A stretch of 64,000 nucleotides of DNA from an uncultured bacterium (GCA_963537415.1 CAUTDF010000002.1:12460-76459), one strand, 5' to 3'; positions 1 to 64,000 are shown, counted from the stretch's first letter. The notes: generated by a model not told the origin, from the sequence alone. Numbers and translations: made by a program.

Positions 1-811
1 TAGCTTCTTTAGAGTTTTCATTAGCTGTCTTATTCGCTTTTTTGATAAGTTCTTTATTAGAGAGATTTTTTTTAATCTTATTAAAGGCATTGAGTTTATA
101 TTCTTGATTATTTTGTGTAGTACTGATGAGTGCATTTTTAAATCGGTTTGAATCTTTATTTGAAAATTTATCAATACAAAACTGTTCTCGTTGATCGTAG
201 ATTTCATCAACTGTTGCTTTTTCACTTACTGTAAATTCCTCAGATAAATAATCATCAATAAAAGCTTGGAAAGTTAATGTTCCTACGGCATTTCTTTTTG
301 CTTTGATTGGAGCTAGATCGGCCTCAGTAATTTCTTTCTTATTTTTTCATGTGATTTTTATAGCTAGCTCGCTAATTCCGTCATTAATATTTTGATTATT
401 GAGTTCTGCCCTTGCTTTTTCAAAACGAGTGTAGGATATAAAGTTATTGAATTCTTCTCGCCATTCATTGTTAAGTGGGTAGTTGTCTTTATTTCAAACG
501 GGTTGTTGGAGTTGTTTGATTCATTTAAGGAGTTTAACAAAATCAGGGTATTGATCTCTTTGACTAAAGTTGCTATTGATGTATCCAGAAACTCAAAGTT
601 TTCGGTAGTTGAAAATATTTTCTTCATTAAGGTTTCCGTTATCATCGAAAAATTCTTTTTTCTTTGGGTCTTCAGTGTTTTGTATCTCAATAAATTGATT
701 CAGATTGTTAATTATTTGTGGGTTATTTACACTTTCTTTCTCGTATGCTTGTAGCCCTGGAAATTTTTCTTTTAACTTGGTATAAGCTTCATCAAGTTCT
801 TGTTTTGTCAT
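1..811 (-). CDS. hypothetical protein (3' end runs off the window start)
   Basis: ATG at 809-811 (MTKQELDEAYTKLKEKFPGLQ...). Frame checked open down to about position 160 when in-frame TGAs (593-595, 521-523, 494-496, 347-349) are read as Gly, and assumed open to position 1. No recognisable motif. Confidence 0.5.
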
Positions 812-1065
812 TTCTGACTTTAATTCTTTTCAAGATTCAGCCCCTTGTTGTGCCGTATTTTTTTTGATTTTATTGTCGTCATATCTTTGGGATTCAATGC
901 TCATTGTACGATGCAAGGGGATATAAAAGTTTCACAGTTAATTTTAGTGATTTTTTTTGTTTTGTCAAATTTGGGCGTAAGATGCAATAGTAATCTTTTT
1001 CTTTTGCAATTGAGAGAAAAAACGATATAGTGAGTCAGAATTATTTACTTTTTAGCGATAATAGA

Positions 1066-2355
1066 ATGAAACTTAGAGAGGAATTAGAGGCTCGTGGATT
1101 GCTTTATCAGTATACTGATGAGAAATTTTTTGATTTGTATGAAAAGTGAGGCGAGAAATTCTATTGTGGCTATGATCCAACTGCAGATTCTCTTCATCTT
1201 GGGCATTTTTTGACCTTTATGGCTGCAGTAAATTTTATGAAGAGAGGAAATACTTTTGTGATGCTGATCTGAGGTGCAACTGGGATGATTGGTGATCCAA
1301 CTGGGAAAAGTGAGGCGAGAGCTTTTCTTTGACTCGATCAATTAAGGCATAATCAAGAGGCGATTACCAAACAAGTGGGTCAGATTTTGGAAAATTTAAA
1401 AAAACTGACAGGAAAGGATTTTCAATTTAAAGTCGTGAATAATTATGATTTTTACAAGGATTTGTCGGTCTTTGACTGGTATAGAACAGTTGGGAAATAT
1501 ATCACGCTAAATACTATGCTCAGTAAGGAATCAGTGAAAAAGAGGCTCGAGAATACTGAGTCTGGTATCAGTTATACTGAGTTTAGTTATATGCTTTTGC
1601 AAGGAAATGACTTTGTTCATTTATATGAAAATGAAGGTGTAAAGCTTCAGATTTGAGGATCTGATCAGCGAGGGAATATGGTGACTGGAACTGAAATGCT
1701 ACGTAAAAAGACGGAAGGTGAGTTAGAAAGTTATGTTATGACCTTGCCTTTGATGATGGACTCAACAGGAAAAAAATTTTGAAAATCTGAATGAAATGCA
1801 ATTTGGTTAGATCAGGAGAAAAATAGTCCATATTTTGTATATCAGTATTTTGTGAATACTGCGGATGCTGATGTAGAGAAATTTTTGAGGGCATTTACTT
1901 TGCTAGAGATTTCAGAAATAGAGGCGATTGTTTCACAACATGTTCAGCAACCAGAGCTCAGGTATGGACAGAGACAGTTAGCGAATTATGTGATTCAAAC
2001 CCTTTTTGGGAAGGAGGCTGCTCAGCAGGCTGAAAAGATTTCAGAATTCCTTTTTGGGGAAAGAGATAAAATGGAGTTACTTTCAGCTTTTTCTGTTGAT
2101 GAATTGCAGGCTTTAGCAAGAGAAACTGGAGGTTGTAGTGTTCAGGAAGATGAGATCAGAATTTTAGAACTTTTGGTGTTGGCTTGAGTTTGTGAATCTA
2201 ATGGAGATGCGAAGAAACTTATTGCTCAGGGGGCGATCTCTGTAAATGAGCAGCTTGTTTCTGATATTGGTCAGAAGTTTTCAAGGAGTGATGCGGTTAA
2301 TTGAGTTTTGCTTATTAGGAAAGGAAAGAAAAACTATAAAATTGCTCAGTTTTAA
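1066..2355 (+). CDS. tyrS: tyrosyl-tRNA synthetase
   Basis: [13 protein letters not shown] (HIGH), QI-G-GSDQ with TGA at 1654-1656, KF-G-KSE-G-NAIW (KMSKS region) with TGA at 1780 and 1792, C-terminal S4-like domain. 429 aa, about 8 in-frame TGA, TAA stop. Confidence 0.93.
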
Positions 2356-2372
2356 TTTTTTTCTTTACGCAA

Positions 2373-2648
2373 ATGCATACCTTCCAGCTTTTGCTCCCTA
2401 ATGATGGGAGAAAACTTAAAAATCTTTTTACAGCTCTTTTGAAAAAAGGGGTAATTTCTCAGGCGGTTGTGATGAATTATGCTAAGATTTATCAGCTTTC
2501 TGAGCCAAAAATCCAAAAATCTGAAAAAAAACTGGTTATGTTTCTTGGTGTGGCTGAGGAACAAGAAAAATTTCTTCACCTTGTATCTCAGATCAGTTCA
2601 TGGACTTTTGAGAATGGAGATTTGTTTCTTATGCCTGGACTTTCTTAA
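2373..2648 (+). CDS. hypothetical small protein
   Basis: 91-aa ORF with no TGA, TAA stop, directly followed by hairpin terminator 2647-2684. No motif recognised. Confidence 0.35.
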   Translation: MHTFQLLLPNDGRKLKNLFTALLKKGVISQAVVMNYAKIYQLSEPKIQKSEKKLVMFLGVAEEQEKFLHLVSQISSWTFENGDLFLMPGLS

Positions 2649-2934
2649 AAAAAGCCTCTTTGAGTGAAACTCAAGGAGGTTTTTGGGTCTCTCAGGATGC
2701 CTGGAGGGATAGTGGAGGATCTTCAGCATTTTCTTCCTCTTTTTCTGTCATGTCTTCTTTTAGTAGTTCATCACCTTCGGTGATAAAGAGTTTCGATGCT
2801 GCCATAATCGCATACATAATAAATCCACCGATTAAGGCAATTACTCCAATCGCACTATATGCGATTGTTGCTGGCTCTGTTTTGCAACTGACGAGTAATG
2901 TGCCTAAAAGCATAAGGGTAAAATACTTTTTCAT
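2629..2934 (-). CDS. small lipoprotein/membrane protein
   Basis: MKKYFTLMLLGTLLVSC lipobox plus one TM helix. TGA at 2692-2694 sits just before the terminator hairpin. Under table 25 the ORF reads through the hairpin to TAA at 2629-2631. Confidence 0.5.
2647..2684. terminator. bidirectional intrinsic terminator
   Basis: A-run, CCTCTTTGAG (2655-2664) tgaaa CTCAAGGAGG (2670-2679), T-run. Confidence 0.6.
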
Positions 2935-3349: not shown

Positions 3350-3358
3350 TTAGTGCTC

Positions 3359-4237: not shown

Positions 4238-4272
4238 TTTCGTTGTTTGAAAATGTAAACTAAAATCTTTTT

Positions 4273-5108: not shown

Positions 5109-6500
5109 TTAAAACTCGCAATTCTTAGGAGTCCTTGGGAAAGGAATTGCGTCACGAATATTCTCCATACCAGTTACATACATTACGAGTCTCTCAAATC
5201 CAAGTCCAAAACCTGAATGTGGAACGCTTCCATATTTTCTGAGATCAAGATACCATTGATAGTCTTCTGTAGACATTTCGAGGTTTTCCATCTTTTTTGT
5301 TAATTTTTCGTAGTTATCTTCTCTTTGAGATCCTCAGATGAGTTCTCCGATTCCAGGTACGAGCATATCCATTGCTCTAACGGTTTTCCCATCTTCGTTG
5401 AGTTTCATATAGAAGGCTTTAATTTCTTGTGGATAATCGGTTACAAATACTGGTCCGTTAAAGACTTTTTCTGAGAGGAATCTCTCGTGTTCAGTCTGAA
5501 GATCAATTCCCCATTCTGGAGCGTATTCAAAATTTTGTCCTGATTTTTTAAGGAGTTCAATTGCTTCAGTATAGGTTACTCTCGCAAATGTTGAATTAAC
5601 TAGTTTTTCAGCTCTTTCTTTTACTCCTGGGAAAATAAATTGGTCAAAAAATTCCATCTCAGCAGGAGCTTCTTCTAGAACATATCTAAGAACATATTTG
5701 ATCATATCTTCTGCGATTTGCATATTTTCTTTGAGGTCAGCAAATGCGATTTCAGGTTCAATCATCCAAAATTCTGAAAGGTGTCTTGTTGTATTTGAAT
5801 TTTCCGCACGGAATGTTGGTCCGAAAGTGTAGATTTTTCCAAAGGCAGAGGCAAAAGTCTCTCCCTCAAGTTGTCCACTTACTGTCAAACCTGCCTTTTT
5901 TCAGAAGAAGTCTTTAGAAAAATCAACCTCTCCAGATTCAGTTTTGGGAGTATCTTTAAGGTCTAGAGTTGTGATTTGGAACATTTCTCCGGCTCCTTCA
6001 GCATCACTTGCGGTAATAATTGGCGTATGTACTCGGATGAAACCTCTTTCATTAAAGAACTTATGAATAGCGAAAGAAAGCAGACTTCTTACTCTGAATA
6101 CTGCTGAAAAAGTGTTTGTTCTTGGTCTGAGATGTGCGATAGTTCTGAGATATTCAAAAGAGTGTCTCTTTTTTTGGAGTGGGAATGTTTCATCTGCTGC
6201 TCCTAAAAGTGTTATTTTTGTAGCTTTGAGTTCAAAAGCTTGTTTTGCTCATTCGGATTTTATGAGATCTCCTTCAATCTGAAGGCTGCTCCCTGTTCCG
6301 TATTTTACGACTTCATTGAAATTTTCAAGTTCTTGTTCAAAAACGATCTGAAGATTTTTTAGATATGAACCATCATTGAGCTCGATAAATCCAAAAGTCT
6401 TTGAATCTCTGAGACTTCTTACTCGTCCGTTTACGATGATCTTGCTTCCGATAAGTGATTCGTAGCTTTTATAGATCGTTTTGATACTTGTCGTTTGCAT
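5109..6500 (-). CDS. asnS: asparaginyl-tRNA synthetase
   Basis: N-terminal OB fold, class II motifs ([36 protein letters not shown]), C-terminal ...[11 protein letters not shown]. 463 aa joined across TGAs at 5334 and 6249. Confidence 0.93.
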
Positions 6501-6577
6501 TTTGAATGAATATATGAAAAAGTAAATTATCTGATTTATAGTGTTTTTTATAGAGAATACAAGTCTTAACAAGAAAA

Positions 6578-6604
6578 AAAATCTGATTTTTATTCAGATT
6601 TTTC
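6578..6604 (-). terminator. terminator built from an inverted AAAATCTGA/TCAGATTTT pair (downstream of dus)
   Basis: aaaaaaaATCTGAtttttatTCAGATttttt. Confidence 0.5.
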
Positions 6605-6725
6605 TTGAGGCATTGTGGGGTGAAGCTGTGGACATCTTATAGTCAGCAAGTTTGATTTTCATCTAGATACCTTCACTGTCATTCCTAATGATAGCTGCAG
6701 TGAAACCTCGCAATGATAGTTGGTT

Positions 6726-7769
6726 TTATCTGTGAGAGGCTAACTCCTCTAATGCAGAGAAAAGTTCTCCTACAGTTTTGATAGGTATAACCTTTTGTTT
6801 TCGTTCACGAGTATCTGGTATTCCCTTTATGTATTGAAAGAGGTATTTTCTAAACTCTACGACTGAACGATATTCTTTTGAGAAATCAATCAGCTTTTTC
6901 AGCTTTTCTAAGTCTTCAAGTGTTGGTTGGTTGAGAGCGTAGTTATCTACCTTTTCTCACCATTCTTCAAATCGTAGATCACAGGCTATCATCATGAGTA
7001 GATGTTCTTGCATGGTCTCTAGTTTTTCGCTGAGTGATGGGAGATGTTGCGTGAAGATTCGTGGATTTCCTATAGCGCCTTGTCCAATCATGATTCCATC
7101 AAACTTTCATTGATCAAGTACTTCTTTGGCCATTTGATAAGAAGTGATGCCTCAGTTGGCGATAACCTTGCAGGGGAGGACTTCTTTGACTTGGTGGATA
7201 AATCAAAAATCAGCATCTCCTGTATAGAGTTGTTTGAGGGTTCTGCCGTGAATACTAATCAGATCGCAGCTTGGTGCGATACGTTTTAGGAAATCGAGTT
7301 GTTCAGGCTTGTCTTCTTCATGAAGTCCTGCTCTGGATTTTACAGAAAAAGATAAGTCAGAATTTTCTTTTACGATTTTTGAAAGATTTTGGATGATTGT
7401 GATAGTCTTTTCACGATGTCTAAGCATATCAGAGCCACCACCACATTTCATGACGGTATTTGATGGACATCAGGTATTGAGCTCTATCCCTGAGAATTGG
7501 TCGGCATATTTTTCAACTAAGATCTTGGCGGTTTGCAGGAGTGTTGCTTCATTTCCTCAGTAGATCTGAGCGATTGGGAGTTGTTTAGGTGTGGTCAAGA
7601 TATGCCTGATGACTTTGCTTGGATTGATGATAAAACCATCAGCATTCATAAACTCAGTTCGTAGCTGTAGGGTATCGTTTTGATTTTTATAATGATCAAA
7701 AATTTTTTTTGTGATCAGGCGGGTTGCACAATTTGTGATCCCATCCATCGGCGCAAAGCACAGTTGCAT
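6726..7769 (-). CDS. dus: tRNA-dihydrouridine synthase
   Basis: MQLCFAPMDGITN..., GIELNTGCPSNTVMKCGGGSDML, HGRT motif. 347 aa, TAA stop. Confidence 0.85.
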
Positions 7770-7804: not shown

Positions 7805-10105
7805 TTAACATTCTTCCAAAAATCTGAGTTCAACCTTTCTGAGTCAGAATTTTGGATTGTGAAATTTTACAATTCCGAGATTATTCCGTATTTCAAGTAC
7901 ATATCCAGTTCCAAAGAGCTTATGTCTTACAGTTGCTCATTCGGTGATTGAAGATTGATGTTGGGCTCCTCAACCTTTGGTGAGGTCGTAGAATTTGAGC
8001 AGATCATTTGGGATTTCCTGGAGAAATCTGCTGACAGGATTCATCTTGGTTTGCCCTCGAGTCATTCTGCTATTTGCATGCGAGATGAAGAGTGCGTCTT
8101 TGGCTCTAGTAATTGCGACATACATTAGTCTCCTTTCTTCTTCTAGCATTTTTGGTTCGAGAAGAGAGTTTGCGAGTGGAAAGATATTGTCCTCAGCACC
8201 TACGATAAATACAGCTGGGAACTCTAGTCCTTTACTAGAGTGGATCGTCATGAGTTTGACTGCGTCAGAATTTTCATCTGTATTTTCGATAGTATCTACC
8301 ATTAGGGTTACTTCTTCCAAAAATCGTCTCAGCAACTCTTCTCCAGAACTGATGATTTCTTCGTTTGCATTTGCGGTTCAAAATTCATATTTGCTCGCCA
8401 TGTTGATCAGTTGTCCAATGTTTTCGTACTTTTCTTCTGCAGTTTGTTCGCTGTCTTCTTCCTTGATAAGGTAGCCTTTATAGTCAATTTTTTTGACAAG
8501 ATATTCCGTGAGATCTGCTGGGTTAAGTGTTTTGATCGCTGTTGTTAATTGATTGAAAAGTTCAATAAAATCTTTGATCCCATCGAGTGCTGGAGTTGTT
8601 AGTTTGATTCAGCATTCTTGTTCAATTATTTTTGTCGTTCCCATTTCAGAAAGTGTGAGAAGTATTTCATAGAGGCTTACTCCCATTTCTAAGGCATAGG
8701 ATTCTAATCTTTCAAGTGAAGTTTTTCAGATTTTTCTATTTGGAATATTGAGTACTCTCTTGAGCGATACCGTATCAAATGGGTTATTGATGACTTTGAG
8801 ATAGGCAAGGATATCCTTGATTTCTTTTCTTTCAAAAAATTTAAATGCTCCATAGATTTTGTAGGGGATTCCTTCTTGGACAAAAAGAGATTCAAAATTC
8901 TGAGATTGAGAGTTTGTTCTATAAAGGATTGCTACCTGTCCTCGTGATTTCAGTTTCCCTTTATCTTTCATTTGTTTGATGAGATCAATTGTATTCGCTG
9001 CTTCATCAATATCGGTATTGTACGTGAGAACAGTAATTTTGTCGTTTCATTCTCTATACGCGATGATATTTTTTTCGTATTGGTTTTTATTCTGCTTGAT
9101 AACAGCATTACCTGCTGATACGATATGCGCTTTTGAACGATAATTGGTTTGGAGCTTAAACATTTGGATATCTGGCCAGTATTGTTTTACATTGAGAAAG
9201 TTCTCCATAAGTGCACCTCTTCGTCCATAGATACTCTGAAAATCATCTCCAATGAGCGTGATATTTGCTCATTCTCAGCTCATCATTTTCATCAGTTCAA
9301 ACTGGATCCAGTTGGTATCTTGCGCTTCATCTACGAGAATATAGTCAAAGCTGTTTTGCCATTTTTGAAGGACTTCAGGGTTTTTTTTGAAGAGTTGATA
9401 GGGGAGGAGCAGTAAATCATCAAAATCAAGGCTGTTTGATTTTTCGAGTTCCTTTTCGTATTCTTGGTAGAGTTTTCCCATCTGATCTTCATAGTTTCCG
9501 TTGCTATATTTGAGGAAAAGTTCTGCAGTTCTTCCTTCGTTTTTTTGCTTTGAAATAAAGCTTTTTACTTCTTGAGGTTTGAAGGTATCCGCCATTGCAT
9601 ATCTTTTGAGAATGTCTCTGATGATTTTTGCGCTATCATCGGCGTCTAAGATTCCAAAGTTTTTATTGTACTTCATCTCTAATTTTTCGATATCTTCCTT
9701 AAGAATTTTGAGGAAAATTGAGTGGAAAGTTCCAATCCATTTGAGTTTTCTTGGATCAAGGTGCTGCATTGAGCTCGGAGTAGTTGTATTCATTTCATTG
9801 AGAAAATCTCAAAAATCTGAGTCAGATTTTTGTTCTTCATTTGTAAATGATTGGCTAGAAATTTCGTCTCAAAGCTTGATCAGTCTTTCTTTCATCTCGT
9901 TTGCTGCTTTGTTGGTGAAGGTTACCGCTAAGATTCTCTCTACTTTGATATTTTTTCACCAGATTAGATATGCGATCTTGTAGGTAAGCACTCTCGTTTT
10001 TCAACTTCCAGCACCAGCAATAATCAGAGTTGATGTATTGGTATGGAGTGCAGCAGCGGTTTGTTCATCATTGAGATTTGAGGCGATATAGTCTTTGAGT
10101 TGCAT
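7805..10105 (-). CDS. pcrA: ATP-dependent DNA helicase PcrA/UvrD
   Basis: Walker A AGAGS-G-KT with the Gly encoded by TGA at 10001-10003, ILVDEAQDTN, TIHSSKGLEF, VAITRAKD, C-terminal Tudor-like tail. 766 aa. Confidence 0.92.
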
Positions 10106-10778: not shown

Positions 10779-10821
10779 TATTAAGTGATAATTTTTTAAT
10801 TTACTAATCACAACTTATCAA

Positions 10822-11052: not shown

Positions 11053-11086
11053 TCTCCTTATTATTTAGCTCTGGAAGATTATTCCT

Positions 11087-16120: not shown

Positions 16121-16372
16121 TTAGACCTTAAGTCAGATTTTTTTACTGATTTTTGTGTAAGCATCTAGATCCTTTGCTTTTAGGTATCTCAAGAAAGATC
16201 TTCTCTTTGCTACCTTTTTCAAAAGACTTCTCTTTGCATCATAATCTTTTGCATTAGTTGCAACATGTGCTTGCAACATTGCGATTTGATCAGATAAAAG
16301 ACCGATTTGCATTTGTGGAGACCCAGTATCTCTCTCGTGTCTCTGAAATACATTTTCCTGTGTTTTTGCCAT
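16121..16372 (-). CDS. rpsO: 30S ribosomal protein S15
   Basis: MAKTQENVFQRHERDTGSPQ... The C-terminus ...KKI-G-LKV only matches the conserved S15 end (..LGLR.) if TGA 16133-16135 is Gly. Confidence 0.9.
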
Positions 16373-16448
16373 TAAACAAACCACTTATAAAAATAAAAAG
16401 AATTCTGAACAAACCCAAAAGCAAATTGCCTTTTTCGGAATGTCCACG

Positions 16449-16520
16449 TACTCTCGGTAGGAATCGAACCTACATCTAACCCTTAGGACGGGCCTATTCT
16501 ATCCATTGAACTACGAGAGC
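16449..16520 (-). tRNA. tRNA-Arg(CCU)
   Basis: 72-nt cloverleaf folded by hand: acceptor GCTCTCG/CGAGAGT, D stem GTTC/GAAT, anticodon stem GGCCC/GGGTT, loop GTCCTAA, T arm GTAGG-TTCGATT-CCTAC. No encoded CCA. Confidence 0.8.
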
Positions 16521-26665: not shown

Positions 26666-27757
26666 ATGCTTATATTACAAAGAATGTGAACATTAGATCA
26701 TTTAGGGCAGTTTATTGATGCTGTGAGCTGAGAGGCTAGTTCTACTCAGGAAGAACTTGTTGAACTCAAAACTGACTTAGCAAAAGCTGTTGTTGAAAAG
26801 ATGAAGGAGAAAGATCCGCTTTCTATCGTTGGAATCGCAGATGATATGGTAGTTGATTATCTGGTTTCTGAGTGATTTTTTGATGCGATCAAGGATAATA
26901 TGATGGGGAAGGCGCTTGAGCTAAGTTCTTTACATGGGTTGCTATCAGAGATTAGGGAAAAACTAAAAAAAGTTGATACTAAGGAACAACTTGATCAGCT
27001 TAGAGCTGAGGTTTTGAGTAAAATAGATGAAAAATCTGAAGGAAGCCAAGATTCTGCTTGAGAGACTGAGGAGAATACTTCTCAAGATCAGAAAAATAAA
27101 GAAAATCAGAATTCTTCAGCTTCTTCCACTACTGGGGGAGTTTCTCCACAGGAACATAAGGTGCAATCTCTAGATTCTCATCATGAGATCAAGAATCGAC
27201 CGAGTGAGCAGATTCCATACATTGAGGCGACAATCAAGTTTGCAGAGGGGCAAATTGGAAAGCCATATCAATGGTGAGCTACAGGTCCAAGTGGATTTGA
27301 TTGTTCAGGACTTTGGAATTGGGCGTTTCAGGAGCAGGGGATTAAGTTTGATTCTCGTTTTACGGCAGCGGCTTTTGAAGCCAGTGATGTTAATATTCCA
27401 AAAGAAGAAGTCAGAGTTTGAGATTTTATGTATTGGGATGAACAGCCAGGTAAGAAGAGACATAATCCAATCTATCATATTGAGATGGTCGTTGGACAGC
27501 CGTATCAGGAGAATGGGAAATGGTATGTGAAAACAATCGGCTCTTCAACTGATAAGTGAGTTTTAGATCTCAATGGACAAAAGACTGCTAAGAGTTGAGT
27601 TTGATATAGAGTGAGAGAGATTACTGGATATCGTCATTTTGGGCGTCCACCGTATTATCTGCAGTTGGCTAAGCATCAGGCTTCTGGTGATAGGCAGCAG
27701 CTTGTTGCTTCAGCAGGTAGAGTTTCTCCAGATACAAAGAAGGAACTGGTGGCTTAA
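26666..27757 (+). CDS. NlpC/P60-family cell-wall hydrolase with a helical/disordered N-terminal domain and no signal peptide
   Basis: GKPYQW-G-ATGPSGFDCSGLWNWAF (TGA at 27275-27277), GDFMYW, IYHIEMVVG. 363 aa, whole frame hand-checked. Starts 6 nt after the protein B stop. Confidence 0.85.
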
Positions 27758-27772: not shown

Positions 27773-27806
27773 AAAAAGAAAAGAGAAATCTGATTTCTCT
27801 TTTTTA
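27773..27806. terminator. bidirectional terminator closing the giant-protein operon and miaA
   Basis: A-run, AGAGAAAT ctg ATTTCTCT (27782-27800), T5. Confidence 0.65.
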
Positions 27807-28965: not shown

Positions 28966-29036
28966 CAAGAGCAGTAGGAATCGAACCTACACCTCCAACT
29001 TCGGAGATTGGCGTGCTACCACTGCACTATGCTCTT
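28966..29036 (-). tRNA. tRNA-Arg(CCG)
   Basis: 71-nt cloverleaf: acceptor AAGAGCA/TGCTCTT, D stem GTGC/GCAC, anticodon stem CCAAT/GTTGG, loop CTCCGAA, T arm GTAGG-TTCGATT-CCTAC. Own promoter (29049-29076) and terminator. Confidence 0.8.
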
Positions 29037-37685: not shown

Positions 37686-39251
37686 TTATTTTCTCTTTGA
37701 TTTTTTCTTATTATTCTTTTTCTTTGCTTTAGATTTGTTTCACTGCGTTGGTTTTGTTCAGGAATTTTTTTCTAAAGTAGGTGGGGTAGGATTCTCGAGA
37801 GATTCCCACTTGAAGGCTTGAGGATCTGCTAACCTTTGTCCATATCGAATTCAGAAGATGAGCATAAATGGATAGACGATCATTCTATCAACAAAGGAAT
37901 GAAGTACCAGTCCTTCAATAGCCAGTCCCAAGAGTCAGAGTCCAAGCCCGATTGCTATGAGTATTTGAGTTAGCTTTTTTTGATCAGCTTTTTTTCATTT
38001 TTTGACTTCTATTAGGTAGGTTCTGATTTCTTTGAGTCCTTGCCAAAGGAGTCGTCCAAAACAAAATATCCATGGAATAAAGCCGAGTATTCCATATTCC
38101 ATAAAAATCTGGACATATTGGTTTTCTGGATTGAAGCCTGGAGTATCCATGCTATATTTTTGGTTGATTTCAGTGATAGTAGCACATCTTGTGTCTGTAG
38201 TTGCGTTTAGGCAGAGCTGATGCGAGGCTGGTCCAGAGTATCCTGCTCCTCGTCCAAAGAAAGGCTTTTGTAATCCTAGTTCAATACCAGCTTCGAGGAG
38301 TTTAATATGTCAGGTATTGCTGTGCTCTCTGGCGAATGCTCCTCTAAAGTAGAAAAATGCTCAAAGTAAGAGGATAAAAGCTGGAATTCAGATTTTTATA
38401 ATAATTTTTTTTGCGTCTTTTCGATGAAAAATGAGGATAAGGACTGCTGTTTGAAGGATCCATACTCCGATAGCGGCTCTTGAATAGGTTGAAAGAACGA
38501 TTGCTCCTGTTGCGATAGTTCGTCAGATCTGGGTTTTTCTAGACTGTTTTCTAAGGTAGGTGAGAGCAAAAAGTGGCCAGAATGCGATCAACCAGAATCC
38601 AAAACTGATAGGTCTCTCAAAGAGGAATTGATTTCTGGCGAGTCATTGGTTGATCTGTGTGTAGTAGACGGCAGGAGGATTTCCAGTCAGCGTTCCCTCA
38701 AAACTATCGCGAGAATAACCAAAGAGTTTAAGAAAGCTCGGAAGCAGTCCAATGATTGCCCACCAAATTACTCCTCCATAGATTGCTCATTTAAAAAGGT
38801 TTTCGTATCGCTTGTGAAATTTTGTATTGATAGGGAGGGCTCGGGCGAGTAGTCCTCAGAGAATAAATATGAGGAATCAGATCAGGTCATACTTTGCTGA
38901 GAGAATATAGGTTGAGATACTGACTTTTTGAACAATGACTGCGAGGAATGCTGTAACTATGCAGAGGATTAGAAATCAGCAAATAAATCTGAAAAAAGAG
39001 GTCTGTAAGAGTTGTTTTTGAGATAGGTTTTCAGATTTTTCTGATGATAAAAGGTATTTTTGTACCAGGAGTCGTCCAGCAATTAGCATAAAGATGAAAA
39101 TGAGTGCTTCTTTTCGTAGTCGGACTCGGTTTCGTATACCTTCGCTTCGTCAGAACTTGTAAGTGAAGAGCGTATGGAGAAAAAATTGGAGAAAGAGTCC
39201 AATCAGGAAGACTTTGATTAAAATATTAACGATTTTTGTGAGAGTTTTCAT
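37686..39251 (-). CDS. O-antigen ligase/polymerase-like (Wzy_C) polytopic membrane protein
   Basis: 521 aa. Frame hand-checked codon by codon (no TAA/TAG, about 19 TGA). More than 10 hydrophobic helices, STYSRAAIG and NPENQYVQIFMEYGILGF resemble the Wzy_C loop. Basic K-rich tail. Confidence 0.65.
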
Positions 39252-44175: not shown

Positions 44176-44805
44176 ATGAAAATTGCAGTAATTGGAGCGA
44201 ATGGGAAAGCTGGTAAATTGATCGCAAATGAGGCGGTAAAAAGAGGATTTGATGTAACGGCTATTGTCCGCAGTGAAAATCAGTCTCAAGCACAGCATGT
44301 TTTACAAAAGGATCTTTTTGCCTTGACCCGTGAGGATTTGCAGGGATTTGATGCTGTTGTAGATGCTTTCGGTGTGTGGAATGAGGAACAATTTCCTTTT
44401 CATATTACTTCTCTTAGACACCTTGCAGATCTTGTGGAGTGACAAAATGGTAAGTTATTCATAGTTTGATGAGCAGGAAGTTTGATTGTAGATAAGGAAA
44501 AGGGAGTTAGATTGGTTGACTCTCCAGATTTCCCAGCTGAATTTAAGGTTTTAGCTGATGTTGAGGCAGAAGCTTTTCTAGAGCTTAGAGAAAGGGCTAA
44601 TGTAAATTGGATTTATGTTTGCCCACCAGCTGACTTTAGACCTGAGATTGAGAATAGAGGAGCTTATAGCCTCTGAAATGGTGAATTTGCATTGAATAGC
44701 AGAGGAGAAAGTGCTATTAGTTATGCAGATTATGCATTAGCAATGGTCGATTTAATTGAGCAGAATAAATACAACCAGCAGATTGTTTCAGTAAATGGGA
44801 AATAA
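44176..44805 (+). CDS. NAD(P)H-binding (atypical SDR/NmrA-like) protein
   Basis: MKIAVIGANGKAGKLI Rossmann start. FIV-G-G-AGSL, where the GG is a tandem TGA-TGA (44467-44472). 209 aa. Confidence 0.8.
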
Positions 44806-51173: not shown

Positions 51174-52532
51174 TTAGAGTTTGAAGAGGTCATTTAGTGC
51201 TTCACTCATTGTTGGATGAGTAAAAATATGATTACTAAGTGCAGTGTATGGGAGATTTCGCTTCATAGCTAGAGATATGATATTTATCATTTCATGCGCT
51301 TCTGAGCAATACAGTGATGCTCCAAGGATGAGTCCAGTTTTCTCGTCGATAACTGCTTTTAAGAGTCATTGTGCTTTTCCAAGGATTCTTGCTTTGGGAA
51401 TTGCTGCTCATTCTAGTTTTCAAACTTTTATAGTATATCCTTGTTCAATTGCTTGTTTTTCGGTAAGTCCAATTCTCGCGAAAGGTGGGTTGAGAAAAGA
51501 GCAATAAGCAAATGTTGCTCTGTCTTTTGTCGATCTCTGAGCGTTCCCAAAGAGCTGATCTGTGATGATTCTAAAGTCATCAAGAGAAATATAGGTAAAT
51601 TGAGGATTTCCTGTTACGTCTCCTATTGCATAGATATTAGGAGCAGAAGTCTGAAGGTGTTCATTGACCTTTATCGCACCTTTGGCTGTGGTTTCAATTT
51701 TTGTGTTTTCTAGGTGGAGATCTTTGATATTAGGGCTTCTTCCAACGGCAAGAAGAAGTGCATCAGCTGTCAGATTTTTTGTCTGATCTTCAGTCTCAAG
51801 TGTAAGATTGAGTTTATTGTTTTCCTCGTTGATTTCGGTGAGCTTTGTTGAGTCGAGAAACTGGATACCTCTTTGTTCAAAATCGGCTCTAATTCTTGCT
51901 ACGACTTCTTCATCTTCATTAGGAAGAATATTTGGATGGGTATTGATGATAGTAACTTTGCATCAAAAGTCTGCATAAATTGAAGCAAATTCTAGTCCAA
52001 TAAATCCGGCACCTAGGATTGCTAAGTGTTCAGGGTATTCTCTGGTTTTCATGAGTTCTGTACTGGTATAGACTTTTGTTGTGTTTTCAATTCATGGGAT
52101 TTCTGGGCGGTTGCTTGTTGCTCAGGTATTGATAAAGATTTTCTCTCCTGAGATTGTTCTTTCTCATTCTGGACTAGTTATTTTGATTTCATGATCAGAA
52201 ATAAAGCTAGCAGTTCCATCAATGATTTGAATATTTTCAAAGGCTGCAAGCATTGCATAATTTTTTTCTCTCAGAAAAGCTGTTAGCTTAGTTGTCTCAT
52301 CTATAGCTTGCTCGTAGTATTCAGATTTCTCTTGAAGTGTTGTTGGATGTTTTTCCTGAGAAAGTGTGAGGAGTTTTTTTGATGGAATACATCAAATATT
52401 GATACATGTTCCTCCGTACATTTCCGGATTTTGCTCAATAAGAGCTACAGTTTCTCATTTTTTTGCGAGCGCAACTGCGAGGGTTTTCCCTCCTTTTCAG
52501 AATCAAATAATAATATTATCAAAGGTATTCAT
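51174..52532 (-). CDS. class I pyridine nucleotide-disulfide oxidoreductase (dihydrolipoamide dehydrogenase/glutathione reductase family)
   Basis: II-G-F-G-KGG (both Gly are TGA, 52497-52499 and 52503-52505), redox centre GGTCINI-G-CIPSK, second GAGFIGLE, C-terminal HPTMSE. 452 aa. Confidence 0.88.
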
Positions 52533-53421: not shown

Positions 53422-55329
53422 ATGGCTTGGGAGTTAAAGGTAGATCAGTTGACAAAAATTTATACTGGGAGACCAATTATTGATCATCTAAGTTTTACTG
53501 TAGAGCAGGGGCAAAAGATTGCTCTTGTTGCCAAGAATGGTGGCGGGAAGACCACACTTTTGAGGCTTCTTATTTGAGAACTAGATAAAACTGATGGAAA
53601 GATTGAATGGAGAAAGGGGCTTAAAATCTGATATTTGCCTCAGGATTTTCGTGGAGATCTGAATCATACGATAGCAGAGGAGTTGTTTGCGATTTCTCAT
53701 CCAGCTGCAAGTCTGATTAGGGAATATGAATGACTTGTGCAAAATCCAGATACTGATCCTGAGCGTTTTCGGCAGCTTTTTGATGAAATTGATGCGATCC
53801 AGGCGTGGGACTATGAGTCTAAGGTAAACACTATTATTTCTAGATTACAGTTGACGTCTCTTCTTCAGCAACCGCTTTCAACGCTCTCGGGGTGAGAGTT
53901 GAAAAGAGTAGCCTTAGCAAAAACACTGATTGATGAACCAGATTTTTTGGTACTTGATGAACCAACTAATCACTTGGATTTACAGATGATTGAGTGGCTT
54001 GAAAATTATCTCAAAAATCAGCATTCTACCTTGTTTATGATAACGCATGATAGGTATTTTTTGGAAAGTGTATGTGATGAGATTTATGAGCTAGATAGAT
54101 GAAAATTGTACTTTTATCCGTGAAATTATAGTTATTTTTTGCAGAAGCAAGCTGAGAGGAGAGAAAATGAATCGATTGCCACAGAAAAGCTTCGTCAGCT
54201 CCTCAAAAGGGAACTCGTTTGGATGCGTAAATCGCCAAGGGCAAGAGCGACCAAACAAAATTATAGACAAAAAGAATTTTATCAGTTAGAAAGTCAGTAT
54301 GATGAGCAAAAAGAGCTTTTGTATTCGGAATCTGGTACGCTTGATATCCCAGTGCAGGAGAGGAGACTTTGAACTAAGATTCTTAAAATAAAAAATCTGA
54401 AAAAAGCTTTCGGTCAAAAAATGATTTTAGATCAGTTTTCTTATGATTTTAAGTTTCAGGAGCGTATTTGAATTATTGGGAAAAATGGAGTTGGAAAGTC
54501 GACTTTTATAAAACTTTTGCTCTGAGAGGAGCAGCCTGATAGTGGAGTGCTTCAAGTTGGGCAGACTGTAGTGTTTTGACATTATCAGCAGGGTGAGATT
54601 GAGTTTCCAGAGTGAAAAAGAGTGATTGATGTGATTAGAGATGTTGGTGAATATCTGGTTTTGGCTGGTGGAGAGAAGATATCGGCTTCAATGCTTTTAG
54701 AAAGGTTTTTGTTTCCTGCTCAGCAACAGTATCAGTTTGCTACTTCCCTTAGCTGAGGTGAGAAAAGGAGGCTCTTTCTTTTAAAAACGTTGATGGCAAA
54801 TCCAAATTTTTTGATTTTAGATGAACCAACAAATGATTTAGATCTTTTGACGATCAGAATTTTAGAGGATTTTTTGTTGCAATTCCGTGGATGTTTACTG
54901 ATTGTCTCTCATGATAGAGCATTTATGGATAGATTGGTTGATCATTTGTTTGTTTTTGAGGGGGAGGGAAAGGTAACTGATTTTCGAGGAACATACACAG
55001 AGCGAAATCATCTCCAAACTCAGCAAAAAGAACAAAAAACTGATCTTTCTCATCAGGTTTCAGTTGATCTTTCCTCAAAAGCTTCTGAGTCATCCACTTC
55101 AATAAAAAAGCTCTCATATGCAGAAAATATTGAGCTTCAGCAATTGATCAAGGAGCTTGAAGAACTTGAAGATGAAAAGCAACAAATTAGTCGCATCTTT
55201 GATAATAAGGATTTGCCTTATGATGAGATTGCTTTGCTTTCCGAACACTTGTGAGGTATTATTAAAACTATTGAACTCAAAGAGGCCAGGTGTTTTGAAT
55301 TGATGGAGAGACAAGAGGCTACTTTATAA
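53422..55329 (+). CDS. ABC-F family ATPase (Uup/EttA-like translation factor)
   Basis: Two ABC cassettes: AKNGGGKTT / LSG-G-E / LVLDEPTNHLD and -G-IIGKNGVGKST / LS-G-GEKRR / LILDEPTNDLD, plus a C-terminal coiled coil. Gaps hand-checked. 635 aa. Confidence 0.9.
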
Positions 55330-62237: not shown

Positions 62238-62248
62238 AAAATTAGAAA

Positions 62249-62277
62249 AACAGCACCTGTATGAGGTCGCTGTTTTA
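62249..62277. terminator. cassette 3 / ruvX bidirectional terminator
   Basis: AACAGCACCT gtatg AGGTCGCTGTT plus T-run. Same AACAG...CTGTT stem family as cassettes 1 and 2. Confidence 0.6.
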
Positions 62278-62679
62278 GTTTTCAGATTTTTTTGATTGTT
62301 TTCGTCTTTCAAGGATAATCATTGCACTGATGGTGTCTGTCGTTGCATTTTTTTTGAAGTCAGAAACGATTTCTCCTGATTGCACACTACTGAAATCTTC
62401 ATCTATAGTTTCGATTTCAATCCTTTGATTTTCAATGATATAATTAAGAGATTCCATAAATTTTGTGATATGTTCTTGGATATCTTTTTGTTTCTGGGGC
62501 CATCAGAGAATGATTTTTCTAATGTGATATCTCTGGATGAGATCTGCTATATAGTAATAGGTCATTGCATCATTCATTACATATCCAATCGGAAAAACGA
62601 CATCTGCATTGAGCGGAGTATAGGCGAGGCCAATATATTTACTACCTCGATCAATACCAAGAGCATGAGAAACTTTCAT
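62275..62679 (-). CDS. ruvX: YqgF/RuvX-family nuclease (pre-16S rRNA nuclease)
   Basis: LGIDRGSKYIGLAY, IIL-G-WPQ, IDEDFSSVQS, DTISAMIILE. 134 aa. Confidence 0.75.
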
Positions 62680-62918
62680 TGTTTATCTATCGAAAATAAA
62701 GAAAAAGAAATCAGAATTTATTGTCTTTTTTCTGTCTATAATCCTAAGAATATGCTTGATAAAAGCAAGGGCATTTCTTTCACTGGGCTTTTAGATCTTT
62801 GGGAGTGGGGGAGGGGAGGAACAGTAGATTTTTTCTCTTGAAAACAAGGAGCGAATAGCTAGACTTAATTTCGGTTTCAAATTTTTTATTATTTCATTAT
62901 TTTGGACAATGGATAAGA

Positions 62919-64000
62919 AATTAGCAAAAGCTCAACAGAGCAATTATACTATTACGATTTCGTTTTCTGATGAGGAAAAAAATGGAGTGAGAAGTCATGT
63001 TTTGCAACATTTTGCAAAGGATATGAATGTTCCAGGTTTTAGAGCTGGGAAAGTGCCTTTGCATATTGTAGAGCAGAAGGTTTCTCCTGAATATATCAGT
63101 ATGGCAATCAATGAACATTTGATCAATAAGGGACTTCAGGCTTTATTAGCTGAAAATGCTGATATTAAGTTTATCGGAGAGCCTTACGCTTTTGATACTA
63201 AAGATGAGAAGGGAACTACAACGGTAACTTTTTCTCTTGATGCATATCCTGAGGTTGATGTAAAGGGAAAGAACTGGTCTGCAGTTAAAATGGATGGAAT
63301 TAGCGTAGAAGCTACAGAGCAGGAAGTAGAGGATTCTTTGCTCAATATTCAGAAGAATTATGCTGATTATAAGGATGCTGAAGTTGTAGCTTTGGATACT
63401 ATTTCAAAGCTTGGGCTTGAATTTTTTGATGCTGAGGATAAGAGTATTGAAAAGGGGACAACATATCTTGGAGAAGTAGAGTTTGCTGAGGATAAGTTTT
63501 GGGCAAAGACCTTTGAGGGAAAAAAGAAAGGAGAAGTGATTGAGCTTAAGTATGATGAGAAGAAACTTCCTGCTGTTCTTAAAGCAAAGCATGAAGGAGC
63601 AAAAGTTTTGAAGGTAACTATTCAAGATGTGAAGCAGATTGTACTTCCTGAACTTAATGATGAAATGATCGTAAAGCTTTTTGGGAAGGATGCAGAGGTA
63701 AAGACTAATGCTGAGCTTAGAGAATATATTAAAAAGGAGATTCTTAAACAAAAGCAGGAAAATAGTTTGATTCAGACTGTTGAGAACTATCTTTCTGAGG
63801 TAAAGAAGAGTGGGGTTGAGGTAATTATCCCTAAGACTATGGTTGATCAAGAATTAAAGGTAAGAATGCAGAATTTGGAAAAGAGGTTTGGATCTGCTGA
63901 GAAGGTTGCTGAATATTTCTCTCAGATCGGAGAAGAAAAGGCAAAGGAATTTATAGAAGGAATTCAATCAGCAGCTAAGGAGAGTCTTGAAAAGTTCTTT
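62919..64000 (+). CDS. tig: trigger factor (3' end beyond window)
   Basis: NVPGFRAGKVPL, PELNDEM... Open frame with no stop of any kind, and no TGA, over 360 codons to the window edge. Confidence 0.9.

What the first reader, a model, noticed from the sequence alone, without database searches (positions are those of the whole stretch)
1..64000. TGA is a sense codon for glycine across the window (translation table 25, Gracilibacteria/Absconditabacteria-type genome)
Nearly every conserved gene is broken by in-frame TGA in the standard-code ORF track. The fragments join in one frame, and the TGAs fall on invariant glycines.
- PcrA Walker A GS-G-KT (10001-10003).
- MiaA P-loop G-ATATGKT (28668-28670).
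- MurE GVT-G-TNGKT (31899-31901).
- TyrRS QI-G-GSDQ (1654-1656) and KF-G-KSE-G (1780, 1792).
- The oxidoreductase dinucleotide fold I-G-F-G-KGG (52497-52505).
- ABC signature LSG-G-E (53893).
- NlpC/P60 YQW-G (27275).
- S15 C-terminus KI-G-LKV (16133).
- A tandem TGA-TGA encoding the GG of FIV-GG-AGS (44467-44472).

Trp (table 4) does not fit these positions. The result redefines every gene model in the window and identifies the lineage.
Basis: partly seen in the sequence, partly recalled or inferred. Interest (0 to 1): 0.7.

Follow-up and report, generated by a model that had tools for sequence, protein, structure and literature searches.

The report
UGA-glycine, CGA/CGG-tryptophan recoded genome

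Summary
All 13 quoted TGA codons are in frame at the stated coordinates. With TAA/TAG as the only stops the window resolves into 63 gene models covering 90% of it. These carry 333 in-frame TGA codons, spread over 54 of the models.

TGA means glycine, not tryptophan. E. coli orthologues have Gly at 38 of 67 TGA columns and Trp at none. This matches ordinary GGN codons, where 132 of 210 are Gly. Seventy-two standard-code HisRS genes have invariant Gly at several TGA columns.

CGA (71 codons) and CGG (12) behave as tryptophan, so NCBI table 25 alone mistranslates about a third of the Trp positions. E. coli has Arg at 0 of 16 CGA/CGG columns and Trp/Phe/Tyr at 8. The true arginine codons AGR and CGY give Arg at 105 of 168.

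The window also carries a tRNA with anticodon CCG at 28966-29036 (-). It has tryptophan identity features (A1:U72, G73, no A20).

The nearest named relatives are Absconditicoccaceae and SR1 oral taxon HOT-345, and identical DNA occurs in human oral metagenomes. Both reassignments are published (2013 and 2021). The finding is correct and useful for annotation, but not new.

The parts
1..64000 (.). Whole window: genes terminate only at TAA/TAG. It holds 333 in-frame TGA (Gly), 71 CGA and 12 CGG (Trp) codons. GC content is 35.8%.
1066..2355 (+). TyrRS. TGA at 1654-1656 (QI-G-GSDQ), 1780-1782 and 1792-1794 (KF-G-KSE-G). CGA at 1669-1671 is the Trp of GSDQ-W-GN.
   Evidence: four PDB TyrRS have G at aa 69, 197 and 241, and W at aa 202. 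Searches give the coordinates.
5109..6662 (-). AsnRS-type class II synthetase. CGA at 6423-6425 and 6033-6035 both align with Trp in E. coli AsnS. TGA at aa 443 aligns with Gly in 14 of 16 standard-code homologues.
6726..7769 (-). Dihydrouridine synthase. CGA at 7059-7061 aligns with Trp in E. coli DusB. The Pfam Dus score is 163.1 bits with W and 152.8 with R at the four CGA codons.
7805..10105 (-). PcrA/UvrD helicase.
- TGA at 10001-10003 is the Walker A GS-G-KT glycine.
- CGA at 9221-9223, 8942-8944 and 8057-8059 sit on aromatic columns.
- CGG at 7886-7888 is TGG in a strain-level relative.
   Evidence::
- TGA-35: G 21 of 22
- TGA-460: G 54 of 54
- CGA-295: F20 W12 R1
- CGA-388: Y10 W9 F5
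- CGA-683: F64 Y53 W12 R8
- CGT-323: R 37 of 37
Also.
16121..16372 (-). Ribosomal protein S15. TGA at 16133-16135 is the C-terminal K-I-G-L-K glycine.
   Evidence: Gly in the Bacillus subtilis S15 chains
16448..16520 (-). tRNA-Arg(CCU) with ordinary arginine features (A20 in the D-loop, A73). It serves as the in-window contrast to the CCG tRNA.
26666..27757 (+). NlpC/P60 peptidase. TGA at 27275-27277 is the Gly of PYxW-G.
   Evidence: Gly in three of three PDB homologues
27804..28757 (-). MiaA.
- TGA at 28668-28670 is the P-loop Gly.
- CGG at 27876-27878 is the Trp of QxT-W-F.
- CGA at 28467-28469 sits on a Phe column.
   Evidence: (IPPT score 263.7 bits with W, 248.5 with R)
28966..29036 (-). 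tRNA with anticodon CCG, which reads CGG. ARAGORN labels it Arg from the anticodon alone. It carries A1:U72, G73 and U (not A) at position 20, with a 5-bp anticodon stem. This is the Trp-acceptor pattern.
   Evidence: Criteria are from PMC8629427. The 5-bp stem agrees with PMC13092985.
30735..32057 (-). MurE. TGA at 31899-31901 is the Gly of GVT-G-TNGKT. CGA at 30783-30785 sits on a Tyr/Phe column.
35813..37135 (+). HisRS with 16 in-frame TGA codons.
   Evidence: In 72 standard-code HisRS genes the TGA columns give Gly as follows:
- aa 36: 72 of 72
- aa 339: 72 of 72
- aa 335: 70
- aa 115: 69
- aa 397: 67
- aa 432: 47 of 49
Trp is never seen. Also.
37686..39251 (-). O-antigen-ligase-like membrane protein with 13 CGA codons, including a cluster at aa 35-46.
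   Evidence: Clade orthologues have W 85-91 and 'R' 27-33 with no K at aa 40, 44 and 46. True Arg columns (AGA 206, 213, 258, 308, 456) are 100% R. Pfam Wzy_C match.
44176..44805 (+). NAD(P)H-binding reductase. The tandem TGA-TGA at 44467-44472 encodes the GG of V-GG-AGS.
   Evidence: GG in three of three PDB homologues
51174..52532 (-). RclA-like pyridine-nucleotide-disulphide oxidoreductase. TGA at 52497-52499 and 52503-52505 lie in the dinucleotide-binding G-x-G motif.
   Evidence: Gly at 9 of 11 TGA columns in 6kgy
53422..55329 (+). ABC-F ATPase. TGA at 53893-53895 is the second Gly of LSG-G-E. CGA at 55003-55005 sits on a Tyr column.
   Evidence: (EttA has Gly at 9 of 12 aligned TGA columns)

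Best explanation
The window is chromosomal DNA of a human-oral member of the SR1/Absconditabacteria lineage, probably family Absconditicoccaceae. Its genetic code differs from the standard bacterial code at three codons:
- UGA is read as glycine instead of stop.
- CGA is read as tryptophan instead of arginine.
- CGG is read as tryptophan instead of arginine.

Shown here:
- The three codons occupy Gly and Trp/aromatic columns of conserved proteins.
- Genes end only at UAA/UAG.
- A tRNA with anticodon CCG and tryptophan identity features (A1:U72, G73, no A20) is encoded in the window. It would insert Trp at CGG.

Inferred from the lineage and the literature, not seen for this genome:
- UGA is decoded by a tRNA-Gly with anticodon UCA (G1:C72, C2:G71, G3:C70, U73).
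- Release factor 2 has been lost.
- CGA is decoded by a Trp-type tRNA(UCG).
- CGU/CGC remain arginine through a tRNA-Arg(GCG).
For: UGA = Gly:
- E. coli orthologues of 11 genes have Gly at 38 of 67 TGA columns and Trp at 0. This is indistinguishable from GGN columns (132 of 210, p=0.39) and unlike TGG columns (p=5e-8).
- By my reading of the printed alignments, the best PDB homologue has Gly at about 49 of 76 aligned TGA columns and Trp at none.
- 72 standard-code HisRS genes have invariant or near-invariant Gly at eight TGA columns.
- Relatives translated with table 4 show only G or W(=TGA) at conserved TGA columns.

CGA/CGG = Trp:
- E. coli has Arg at 0 of 16 columns, against 105 of 168 for AGR+CGY (p=5e-7).
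- E. coli has W/F/Y at 8 of 16, against 2 of 168 (p=2e-8).
- Invariant Trp motifs are CGA or CGG: TyrRS GSDQ-W-GN, UvrD SIYG-W-RGA, MiaA T-W-F.
- 150 PcrA representatives put CGA on F/Y/W columns, while CGT-323 is R in 37 of 37.
- In 120 clade relatives, window CGA/CGG columns are a W/'R' mix without K. TGG columns look the same, and AGR columns do not (R 86%, K 7%, W 0).
- A same-species strain has TGG where the window has CGG.
- Pfam scores rise by 9.7, 10.3 and 15.2 bits with W instead of R for three families.

tRNA(CCG) features.

Lineage tRNA(UCA):
- 100 of 120 metagenomic loci matching a Gly-type UCA tRNA pattern carry such a tRNA.
- All 51 of those loci that are at least 5 kb long have 28-40% GC, and freeing TGA multiplies their long-ORF content.

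Published precedent: PMC8629427 and PMC13092985.
Against: - No tRNA(UCA), tRNA(UCG), TrpRS, ArgRS or release-factor gene lies in the window, so the decoding machinery for UGA and CGA in this genome is inferred.
- All evidence is comparative. Nothing shows which residue is actually inserted, and partial or ambiguous decoding of CGA/CGG cannot be excluded.
- Several CGA columns are variable: PcrA-594, MiaA-214, RclA-425, ABC-F-522.
- One PDB homologue has Arg at PcrA-388.
- Pfam scores for Wzy_C and the AsnRS core do not improve with W.
- Ranking the CCG tRNA by overall similarity to other tRNAs did not single out tRNA-Trp.
Confidence: 0.9

Rival explanations
1. Plain NCBI table 25. UGA is glycine, but CGA and CGG are still arginine. 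The aromatic columns reflect lineage-specific Trp-to-Arg substitutions.
For: - Table 25 is what public annotation applies to this lineage. NCBI proteins of relatives have G at UGA and R at these columns.
- One PDB homologue has Arg at PcrA-388.
- Wzy_C and AsnRS core Pfam scores are no better with W.
Against: - E. coli has Arg at 0 of 16 aligned CGA/CGG columns, against 63% for AGR/CGY.
- Catalytically conserved Trp residues would all have been replaced by Arg, and only at CGA/CGG codons.
- Relatives never show Lys at these columns, unlike true Arg columns.
- The tRNA reading CGG lacks the A20 arginine determinant and has G73 and A1:U72.
Confidence: 0.04
2. Ambiguous or transitional decoding. 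CGA and/or CGG are read partly as Trp and partly as Arg, or UGA occasionally still terminates. The code is then not cleanly reassigned.
For: - About half of the CGA columns are variable and uninformative.
- The 2021 screen notes that only experiments can rule out ambiguous translation, and that a U34 tRNA could read both members of a codon pair.
- CGA/CGG are still rare, at 37 and 6 per 10,000 codons.
Against: - CGA/CGG already make up 83 of 242 Trp-type codons (34%), including invariant catalytic Trp positions.
- No model ends at TGA, and C-terminal TGA codons are conserved as G/TGA in relatives.
- No Arg-type tRNA for CGA/CGG is seen, though the window is only a small part of the genome.
Confidence: 0.08
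3. Table 4-type code: UGA is tryptophan, as in Mycoplasma and several insect endosymbionts.
For: - Low GC and UGA in frame.
- ENA, Logan and JGI gene calls for this organism were evidently made with table 4 and show W at these positions.
Against: - Trp is at 0 of 67 E. coli-aligned and 0 of about 76 PDB-aligned TGA columns, and Gly is at 57-64%.
- TGA falls on P-loop, Rossmann GxG and ABC LSGG glycines.
- True TGG columns never exchange with G in relatives, while TGA columns do.
Confidence: 0.005
4. Not a code change. The TGAs would be sequencing or assembly errors, pseudogenes, selenocysteine sites or programmed read-through.
For: None beyond the bare presence of in-frame TGA.
Against: - There are 333 TGA codons in 54 of 63 genes, always in frame, at 90% coding density.
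- Independent human oral metagenome contigs are 100% identical across 3.4 kb, including the TGAs.
- The aligned residue is Gly, not Cys.
- The same columns are GGN or TGA in over 100 relatives.
Confidence: 0.003

Closest known systems
NCBI translation table 25 (Candidate Division SR1 and Gracilibacteria code; Campbell et al. 2013, Rinke et al. 2013, as cited in PMC8629427)
   Same: UGA is read as glycine. UAA/UAG are the only stops. The genome is a low-GC, CPR-type genome of the SR1/Gracilibacteria group. Lineage contigs carry a Gly-identity tRNA(UCA).
   Different: Table 25 keeps CGA and CGG as arginine. In this window they sit on Trp/aromatic columns and never on Arg columns.
Absconditabacteria code with UGA=Gly plus CGA/CGG=Trp, predicted by Codetta (Shulgina & Eddy 2021, eLife, PMC8629427). 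Restated for Absconditabacterales in PMC13092985.
   Same: - All three codon meanings match.
- GC is 0.36, within the reported 0.26-0.38.
- CGG is 6 per 10,000 and CGA 37 per 10,000, at the reported ceilings (under 7 and under 37).
- AGA is the main Arg codon.
- The tRNA(CCG) has G73, no A20 and a 5-bp anticodon stem.
   Different: Nothing substantive. This is a further human-oral representative. Here the Trp-type tRNA(CCG) is seen directly next to miaA. The partner tRNA(UCG) and tRNA-Arg(GCG) were not observable.
CGG to Trp reassignment in Anaerococcus and RFN20 Bacilli (PMC8629427)
   Same: An arginine codon is captured by a tRNA(CCG) with tryptophan identity features in a low-GC genome.
   Different: Those are unrelated Bacillota. 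There CGA stays arginine and UGA stays stop.
Translation table 4 (Mycoplasmatales/Entomoplasmatales and insect endosymbionts)
   Same: UGA is a sense codon in a small, low-GC genome, and gene callers rescue long ORFs when UGA is freed.
   Different: The inserted residue there is Trp. Here UGA columns are Gly and never Trp.

Membership tests
NCBI table 25 (SR1/Gracilibacteria code) | UGA occurs in frame inside conserved genes, and genes end at UAA/UAG only | tested here: met
   There are 333 in-frame TGA codons in 54 of 63 models, and 61 of 61 complete models end in TAA/TAG. ORFs of at least 300 aa rise from 2 to 30 only when TGA is freed.
NCBI table 25 (SR1/Gracilibacteria code) | UGA columns correspond to glycine in standard-code homologues | tested here: met
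   E. coli has Gly at 38 of 67 columns and Trp at 0. In 72 HisRS genes Gly is 72 of 72 at two columns and at least 67 of 72 at three more. PDB alignments agree.
NCBI table 25 (SR1/Gracilibacteria code) | tRNA with anticodon UCA and glycine identity (G1:C72, C2:G71, G3:C70, U73) in the genome | tested here: inconclusive
   None is in the 64-kb window, which has only two tRNAs. Such tRNAs were found on 100 of 120 metagenomic loci. All 51 of those loci that are at least 5 kb long are low-GC and look TGA-recoded. None of the loci is from this organism.
NCBI table 25 (SR1/Gracilibacteria code) | Release factor 2 (prfB) absent from the genome | not testable with these tools
   Only 64 kb of roughly 1 Mb is available, and the rest of the genome could not be retrieved.
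NCBI table 25 (SR1/Gracilibacteria code) | Organism belongs to the Absconditabacteria/Gracilibacteria clade | tested here: met
   Best named relatives:
- Candidatus Absconditicoccaceae bacterium, PcrA 78% (taxonomy)
- SR1 oral taxon HOT-345, HisRS 67%
- Candidatus Gracilibacteria bacterium, HisRS fragment 95%
This rests on best hits, not a phylogeny.
NCBI table 25 (SR1/Gracilibacteria code) | All other 63 codons keep their standard meaning | tested here: not met
   CGA/CGG align with Arg at 0 of 16 columns and with W/F/Y at 8 of 16. In a 4,159-codon comparison with E. coli, the departures from the standard meaning that are not conservative swaps on small counts are TGA and CGA; CGG has too few aligned columns (2) to be scored there.
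Absconditabacteria UGA=Gly + CGA/CGG=Trp code (Shulgina & Eddy 2021) | CGA and CGG occupy tryptophan columns of conserved proteins while CGU/CGC/AGR stay arginine | tested here: met
   CGY gives R at 14 of 26 and AGR gives R at 91 of 142. CGG rests on few codons: 12 in the window, 2 aligned with E. coli, one of them an invariant Trp.
Absconditabacteria UGA=Gly + CGA/CGG=Trp code (Shulgina & Eddy 2021) | tRNA reading the reassigned codon has G73 and lacks A20, with A/G1:U72 as support | tested here: met
   The tRNA(CCG) at 28966-29036 (-) has A1:U72, G73 and D-loop AGUGGUA with U at position 20. The neighbouring tRNA-Arg(CCU) has A20 and A73. The criteria are quoted. A tRNA(UCG) for CGA is not in the window.
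Absconditabacteria UGA=Gly + CGA/CGG=Trp code (Shulgina & Eddy 2021) | Low genomic GC, with CGA/CGG rare and AGA the dominant Arg codon | tested here: met
   GC is 0.358. Codon counts are CGA 71, CGG 12, AGA 408 and TGG 159 of 19,191 codons.
Absconditabacteria UGA=Gly + CGA/CGG=Trp code (Shulgina & Eddy 2021) | Tryptophan actually inserted at CGA/CGG | not testable with these tools
   This needs proteomics or aminoacylation assays. The 2021 paper says the same.
Translation table 4 (UGA=Trp) | UGA columns correspond to tryptophan | tested here: not met
   Trp is at 0 of 67 (E. coli) and 0 of about 76 (PDB) columns. TGA against TGG for Trp gives p=1e-7.
Selenocysteine recoding | Rare UGA at Cys/Sec columns of a few selenoproteins | tested here: not met
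   UGA is 1.7% of all codons, occurs in 54 of 63 genes, and aligns with Gly.

The most novel reading that the evidence does not exclude
In this oral lineage the single Trp-type tRNA(CCG) seen next to miaA might read both CGG and CGA, through a C:A 'superwobble'. Alternatively, CGA/CGG might be decoded ambiguously as Trp and Arg. Either would make this organism a living intermediate of a sense-codon reassignment that has never been confirmed experimentally. My data do not exclude this, because the tRNA(UCG), TrpRS and ArgRS of this genome were not observable.
Probability: 0.06. Interest if true: 0.6.

Novelty: already known. Interest (0 to 1): 0.25.

Why it matters
The practical consequence is annotation.
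- With the standard code, almost every gene in this window is shattered.
- With table 4, which several public pipelines evidently used for this organism, 333 glycines become tryptophans.
- Even with the 'correct' table 25, 83 tryptophans (about a third of all Trp positions) are written as arginine. These include catalytic-motif residues of TyrRS, UvrD/PcrA and MiaA.

Any structure prediction, family assignment or phylogeny built on those translations inherits the errors.

Biologically the window is one more clean example of a bacterium with three reassigned codons. The CGA/CGG change is still only computationally supported in the literature. A human-oral representative with abundant metagenomic coverage is therefore a reasonable target for metaproteomic confirmation.

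Tried and rejected
I used a 135-aa TGA-free fragment instead.
- Ranking all tRNAs in hand by identity to the CCG tRNA did not separate isotypes. tRNA-Trp(CCA) of a lineage contig scored 0.73, and long Ser tRNAs scored as high. I rely on identity elements instead.
- GTDB loci around hisS share almost no synteny with the window, so a codon-by-codon comparison with other genera was not possible. Only a strain-level comparison was possible. It gave a few GGA<->TGA sites and one CGG->TGG site, with counts doubled by two overlapping contigs.
- A pooled codon table that included 72 copies of HisRS produced spurious 'reassignments' through pseudo-replication. I replaced it with an E. coli-only table.
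- The look-up of the L27 protein returned only 2-3 kb oral-metagenome contigs. The one longer contig on record was not delivered.
- The metagenomic contigs carrying tRNA(UCA) are not close relatives of this organism, so its own tRNA-Gly(UCA) was not found.
- I suspected that the CGA cluster in the Wzy-like gene (aa 35-46) was a genuine positively charged Arg loop. Clade orthologues show W/'R' without K at aa 40, 44 and 46, so it is a conserved Trp motif.
- I did not look for release factors. Absence from 64 kb would prove nothing.

Full report
**Observation**

The signal is specific to TGA:
- Under the standard code the window has only 2 ORFs of at least 300 aa.
- Treating TGA as sense gives 30.
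- Treating TAG or TAA as sense still gives 2 each.

With TAA/TAG as the only stops I obtained 63 non-overlapping gene models covering 90% of the window. They hold 333 in-frame TGA codons, or 1.74% of 19,191 codons. These occur in 54 of the 63 models. Every complete model ends in TAA (44) or TAG (17).

GGN codons alone give 4.8% glycine, which is low. Adding TGA gives 6.5%. Reading TGA as Trp would give an implausible 2.6% Trp.

**Which amino acid UGA encodes**

Four independent comparisons agree on glycine.

1. *Solved structures.* I aligned ten window proteins, with X at TGA, to PDB chains. These were TyrRS, PcrA, HisRS, MurE, MiaA, an RclA-like oxidoreductase, S15, an NAD(P)H-binding reductase, ABC-F and NlpC/P60. 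By my reading of the printed alignments, the best homologue has Gly at about 49 of 76 aligned TGA columns and Trp at none.
   - the Walker A and P-loop glycines
   - GVT-G-TNGKT
   - QI-G-GSDQ
   - the GxG of the dinucleotide fold
   - LSG-G-E
   - PYxW-G
   - the S15 C-terminus
   - the tandem GG

2. *E. coli orthologues.* An automated tally against E. coli K-12 orthologues of 11 genes (loci L084-L095) covers 4,159 aligned codons. Gly is at 38 of 67 TGA columns and Trp at 0. This is statistically the same as GGN columns (132 of 210, p=0.39). It is very different from TGG columns (p=5e-8).

3. *Standard-code HisRS genes.* The GTDB scan happened to return 72 of these, mostly from Actinomycetota. 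They have Gly in 72 of 72 at two TGA columns, in 67-70 of 72 at three more, and in 47 of 49 at a sixth. None has Trp at any TGA column. The one invariant Trp column is TGG in the window.

4. *Relatives within the clade.* Many were translated with table 4 by ENA, Logan or JGI, so W marks their TGA codons. In these relatives, conserved window-TGA columns are only G or W. Window-GGN columns show the same G/W mix. True TGG columns never show G.

While reading the alignments I saw Arg in the window at invariant Trp positions:
- TyrRS GSDQ-W-GN
- UvrD/PcrA SIYG-W-RGA
- MiaA QxT-W-F

The underlying codons are CGA, CGA and CGG (coordinates). The window has 71 CGA and 12 CGG codons, against 159 TGG, 99 CGY and 522 AGR.

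| Window codon | E. coli aligned columns | Arg | Other notable residues |
|---|---|---|---|
| CGA | 14 | 0 | W4, Y2, F1 |
| CGG | 2 | 0 | W1, E1 |
| CGY | 26 | 14 | |
| AGR | 142 | 91 | |

The Arg difference gives p=5e-7. Aromatic residues are at 8 of 16 CGA/CGG columns against 2 of 168, p=2e-8.

Further support:
- In 150 representatives of the PcrA/UvrD family, three of the four CGA columns are aromatic: F20 W12 R1, then Y10 W9 F5, then F64 Y53 W12 R8. The CGT column is R in 37 of 37.
- In 120 clade relatives of PcrA, window CGA/CGG columns are W 52-72% and 'R' 27-34% with no Lys. That is the same pattern as TGG columns (W 65%, R 32%). AGR columns are R 86%, K 7%, W 0%.
- A same-species strain (P0271) has TGG where the window has CGG at aa 740.
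- Pfam scores rise with W instead of R at CGA/CGG:
  - ADP-ribosylglycohydrolase: 241.9 against 232.2 bits
  - Dus: 163.1 against 152.8 bits
  - IPPT: 263.7 against 248.5 bits
- The Wzy-like membrane protein has 13 CGA codons. One cluster would read GRSEGIRNRVRLRK as Arg and looked like a normal basic loop. Its orthologues have W 85-91 and 'R' 27-33 with no K at three of those columns. Its AGA columns are 100% R. So this cluster too is a conserved Trp motif.

**Decoding machinery visible in the window**

The window has two tRNA genes.
- The one at 16448-16520 (-) has anticodon CCU, A20 in the D-loop and A73. It is an ordinary tRNA-Arg.
- The one at 28966-29036 (-), between miaA and a comF-like gene, has anticodon CCG. 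ARAGORN names it Arg from the anticodon alone. Its sequence has A1:U72, discriminator G73, D-loop AGUGGUA (U, not A, at position 20) and a 5-bp anticodon stem.

G73 without A20, supported by A/G1:U72, is exactly the rule Shulgina & Eddy used to call Trp-acceptor tRNAs (PMC8629427). A 2026 survey states that Absconditabacterales tRNA(CCG) genes all have 5-bp anticodon stems (PMC13092985). The window therefore contains a plausible Trp-inserting decoder for CGG.

It contains no tRNA(UCA), tRNA(UCG), TrpRS, ArgRS or release-factor gene that I recognised. The rest of the mechanism is inferred.

To see the lineage's UGA decoder, I scanned JGI metagenome contigs for a class-I tRNA pattern with anticodon UCA, 5' GCG and 3' CGC-U.
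- 100 of the 120 loci returned carry such a tRNA.
- All 51 of those loci that are at least 5 kb long have 28-40% GC, and freeing TGA multiplies their long-ORF content about 2-fold to more than 20-fold.
- The tRNA usually sits beside tRNA-Ala(UGC), Tyr(GUA), Arg(UCU) and Glu(CUC).
- None of these contigs is from the window's organism.

**Source and lineage**

- Three human oral metagenome contigs are 100% identical to the window over up to 3.4 kb.
- A 173.6-kb ENA scaffold is about 96% identical at the DNA level over the shared genes.
- The nearest named proteins are from 'Candidatus Absconditicoccaceae bacterium' (PcrA 78%), 'Candidatus Gracilibacteria bacterium' (a HisRS fragment, 95%) and 'candidate division SR1'.
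- The nearest GTDB species genomes by HisRS are an unnamed MAG (68%) and SR1 bacterium human oral taxon HOT-345 (67%).
- NCBI places Absconditicoccaceae in Absconditabacterales.

I did not build a tree, so family-level placement rests on best hits.

**Comparison with what is known**

UGA=Gly in SR1 and Gracilibacteria dates from 2013 (Campbell et al.; Rinke et al., as cited in PMC8629427) and is NCBI table 25. CGA+CGG=Trp in Absconditabacteria was predicted computationally in 2021 (PMC8629427). That prediction came with the following features, all matched here:
- low GC of 0.26-0.38 (0.358 here)
- CGG under 7 per 10,000 codons (6 here)
- CGA under 37 per 10,000 codons (37 here)
- AGA as the main Arg codon
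- Trp-type tRNAs

The window fails one defining feature of table 25, that all other codons are standard. It meets every testable feature of the 2021 Absconditabacteria code. Nothing here departs from that description, so I rate it as already known.

The 2021 paper stresses that the Arg-to-Trp change lacks experimental proof and that ambiguous decoding is possible. That remains the only open, modestly novel angle.

**Verdict**

Its interpretation is supported but incomplete. The correct translation of this window needs UGA=Gly and CGA/CGG=Trp.

My confidence is about 0.98 for UGA=Gly and about 0.9 for the three-codon statement as a whole.

Noticed in passing
window 13339-14799 (-): A RuBisCO large-subunit homologue of 486 aa (Pfam RuBisCO_large 311 bits plus the N-terminal domain) in a genome otherwise typical of a reduced episymbiont. 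The strain contig L216 encodes a PYNP_C-domain protein nearby. Together these suggest the nucleoside-salvage type of RuBisCO pathway seen in CPR bacteria.
   Followed up: partly
window 40425-42005 (-): The UvrB homologue is only 526 aa. Pfam finds the N-terminal helicase part and the UvrB interaction domain, but no Helicase_C, UvrB C-terminal or UVR domain. The protein ends about 45 residues after the [10 protein letters not shown] motif and is followed directly by an ATP-grasp gene. It may be truncated or degenerate.
   Followed up: partly
window 3020-5067 (-) and 11747-12703 (+): Strain-variable content. Three genes between tyrS and asnS (109 aa, 292 aa, and a peptidase S51 of 264 aa, all TGA-rich) have no counterpart in the roughly 96%-identical scaffold L216/L217. 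Neither does the ADP-ribosylglycohydrolase gene next to nusB. The start of the ADP-ribosylglycohydrolase gene (the first ~295 bases) is present at 100% identity at the ends of contigs L001/L002.
   Followed up: partly
window 19408-22584 and 22613-26659 (+): Two adjacent very large ORFs of 1058 and 1348 aa, with 15 and 18 TGA codons, sit immediately upstream of the NlpC/P60 peptidase gene. The 1058-aa product has no Pfam hit on record. They may form a cell-surface or attack module. I did not analyse them.
   Followed up: no
window 55419-56714 (+): A 431-aa low-complexity protein made of Gly/Gln/Val/Asn-rich repeats (GVQN.GGQVMNG...). Eleven of its glycines are written as TGA.
   Followed up: no
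window 60655-61179 and 61242-61757 (+): Two tandem paralogous small ORFs of 174 and 171 aa share motifs: LSYADLKEISKAFSRVNK against LSYNDLKELSKAITRVNK, and WIPKLFAIESGG against WVPKLLSLESGG. Function is unknown.
   Followed up: no
window 16654-17178 and 17296-17904 (-): Two adjacent lipoprotein-like ORFs with signal peptide and Cys, and without any TGA, lie between tRNA-Arg(CCU) and mraY. The related strain scaffold has a single 210-aa gene at this position.
   Followed up: no
window about 10800-11060 (+): By synteny with L216 (L27, then L32, then NusB), a 76-aa ribosomal protein L32 gene probably lies in the gap between rpmA and nusB. My 80-aa cut-off left it out of the gene models.
   Followed up: no
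public protein records P0001, P0271, P0391 (ENA/Logan) and P0005 (NCBI): Public databases hold this organism's proteins in two wrong translations. ENA, Logan and JGI calls have W at every UGA (table 4). NCBI calls have G at UGA but R at CGA/CGG (table 25).
   Followed up: yes
loci L097-L215 (metagenome contigs): In recoded-lineage contigs the tRNA-Gly(UCA) gene usually lies in a conserved tRNA cluster with tRNA-Ala(UGC), Tyr(GUA), Arg(UCU) and Glu(CUC). The counts are 100, 75, 70, 51 and 46. ARAGORN labels it tRNA-SeC.
   Followed up: partly
window 51174-52532 (-): The oxidoreductase is a close full-length homologue (E=4e-125) of PDB entry 6kgy, deposited as a 'pyridine nucleotide-disulphide oxidoreductase'. 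From memory, not from the record, I take 6kgy to be E. coli RclA. This is an oxidative or chlorine-stress enzyme, plausible for an oral organism.
   Followed up: no
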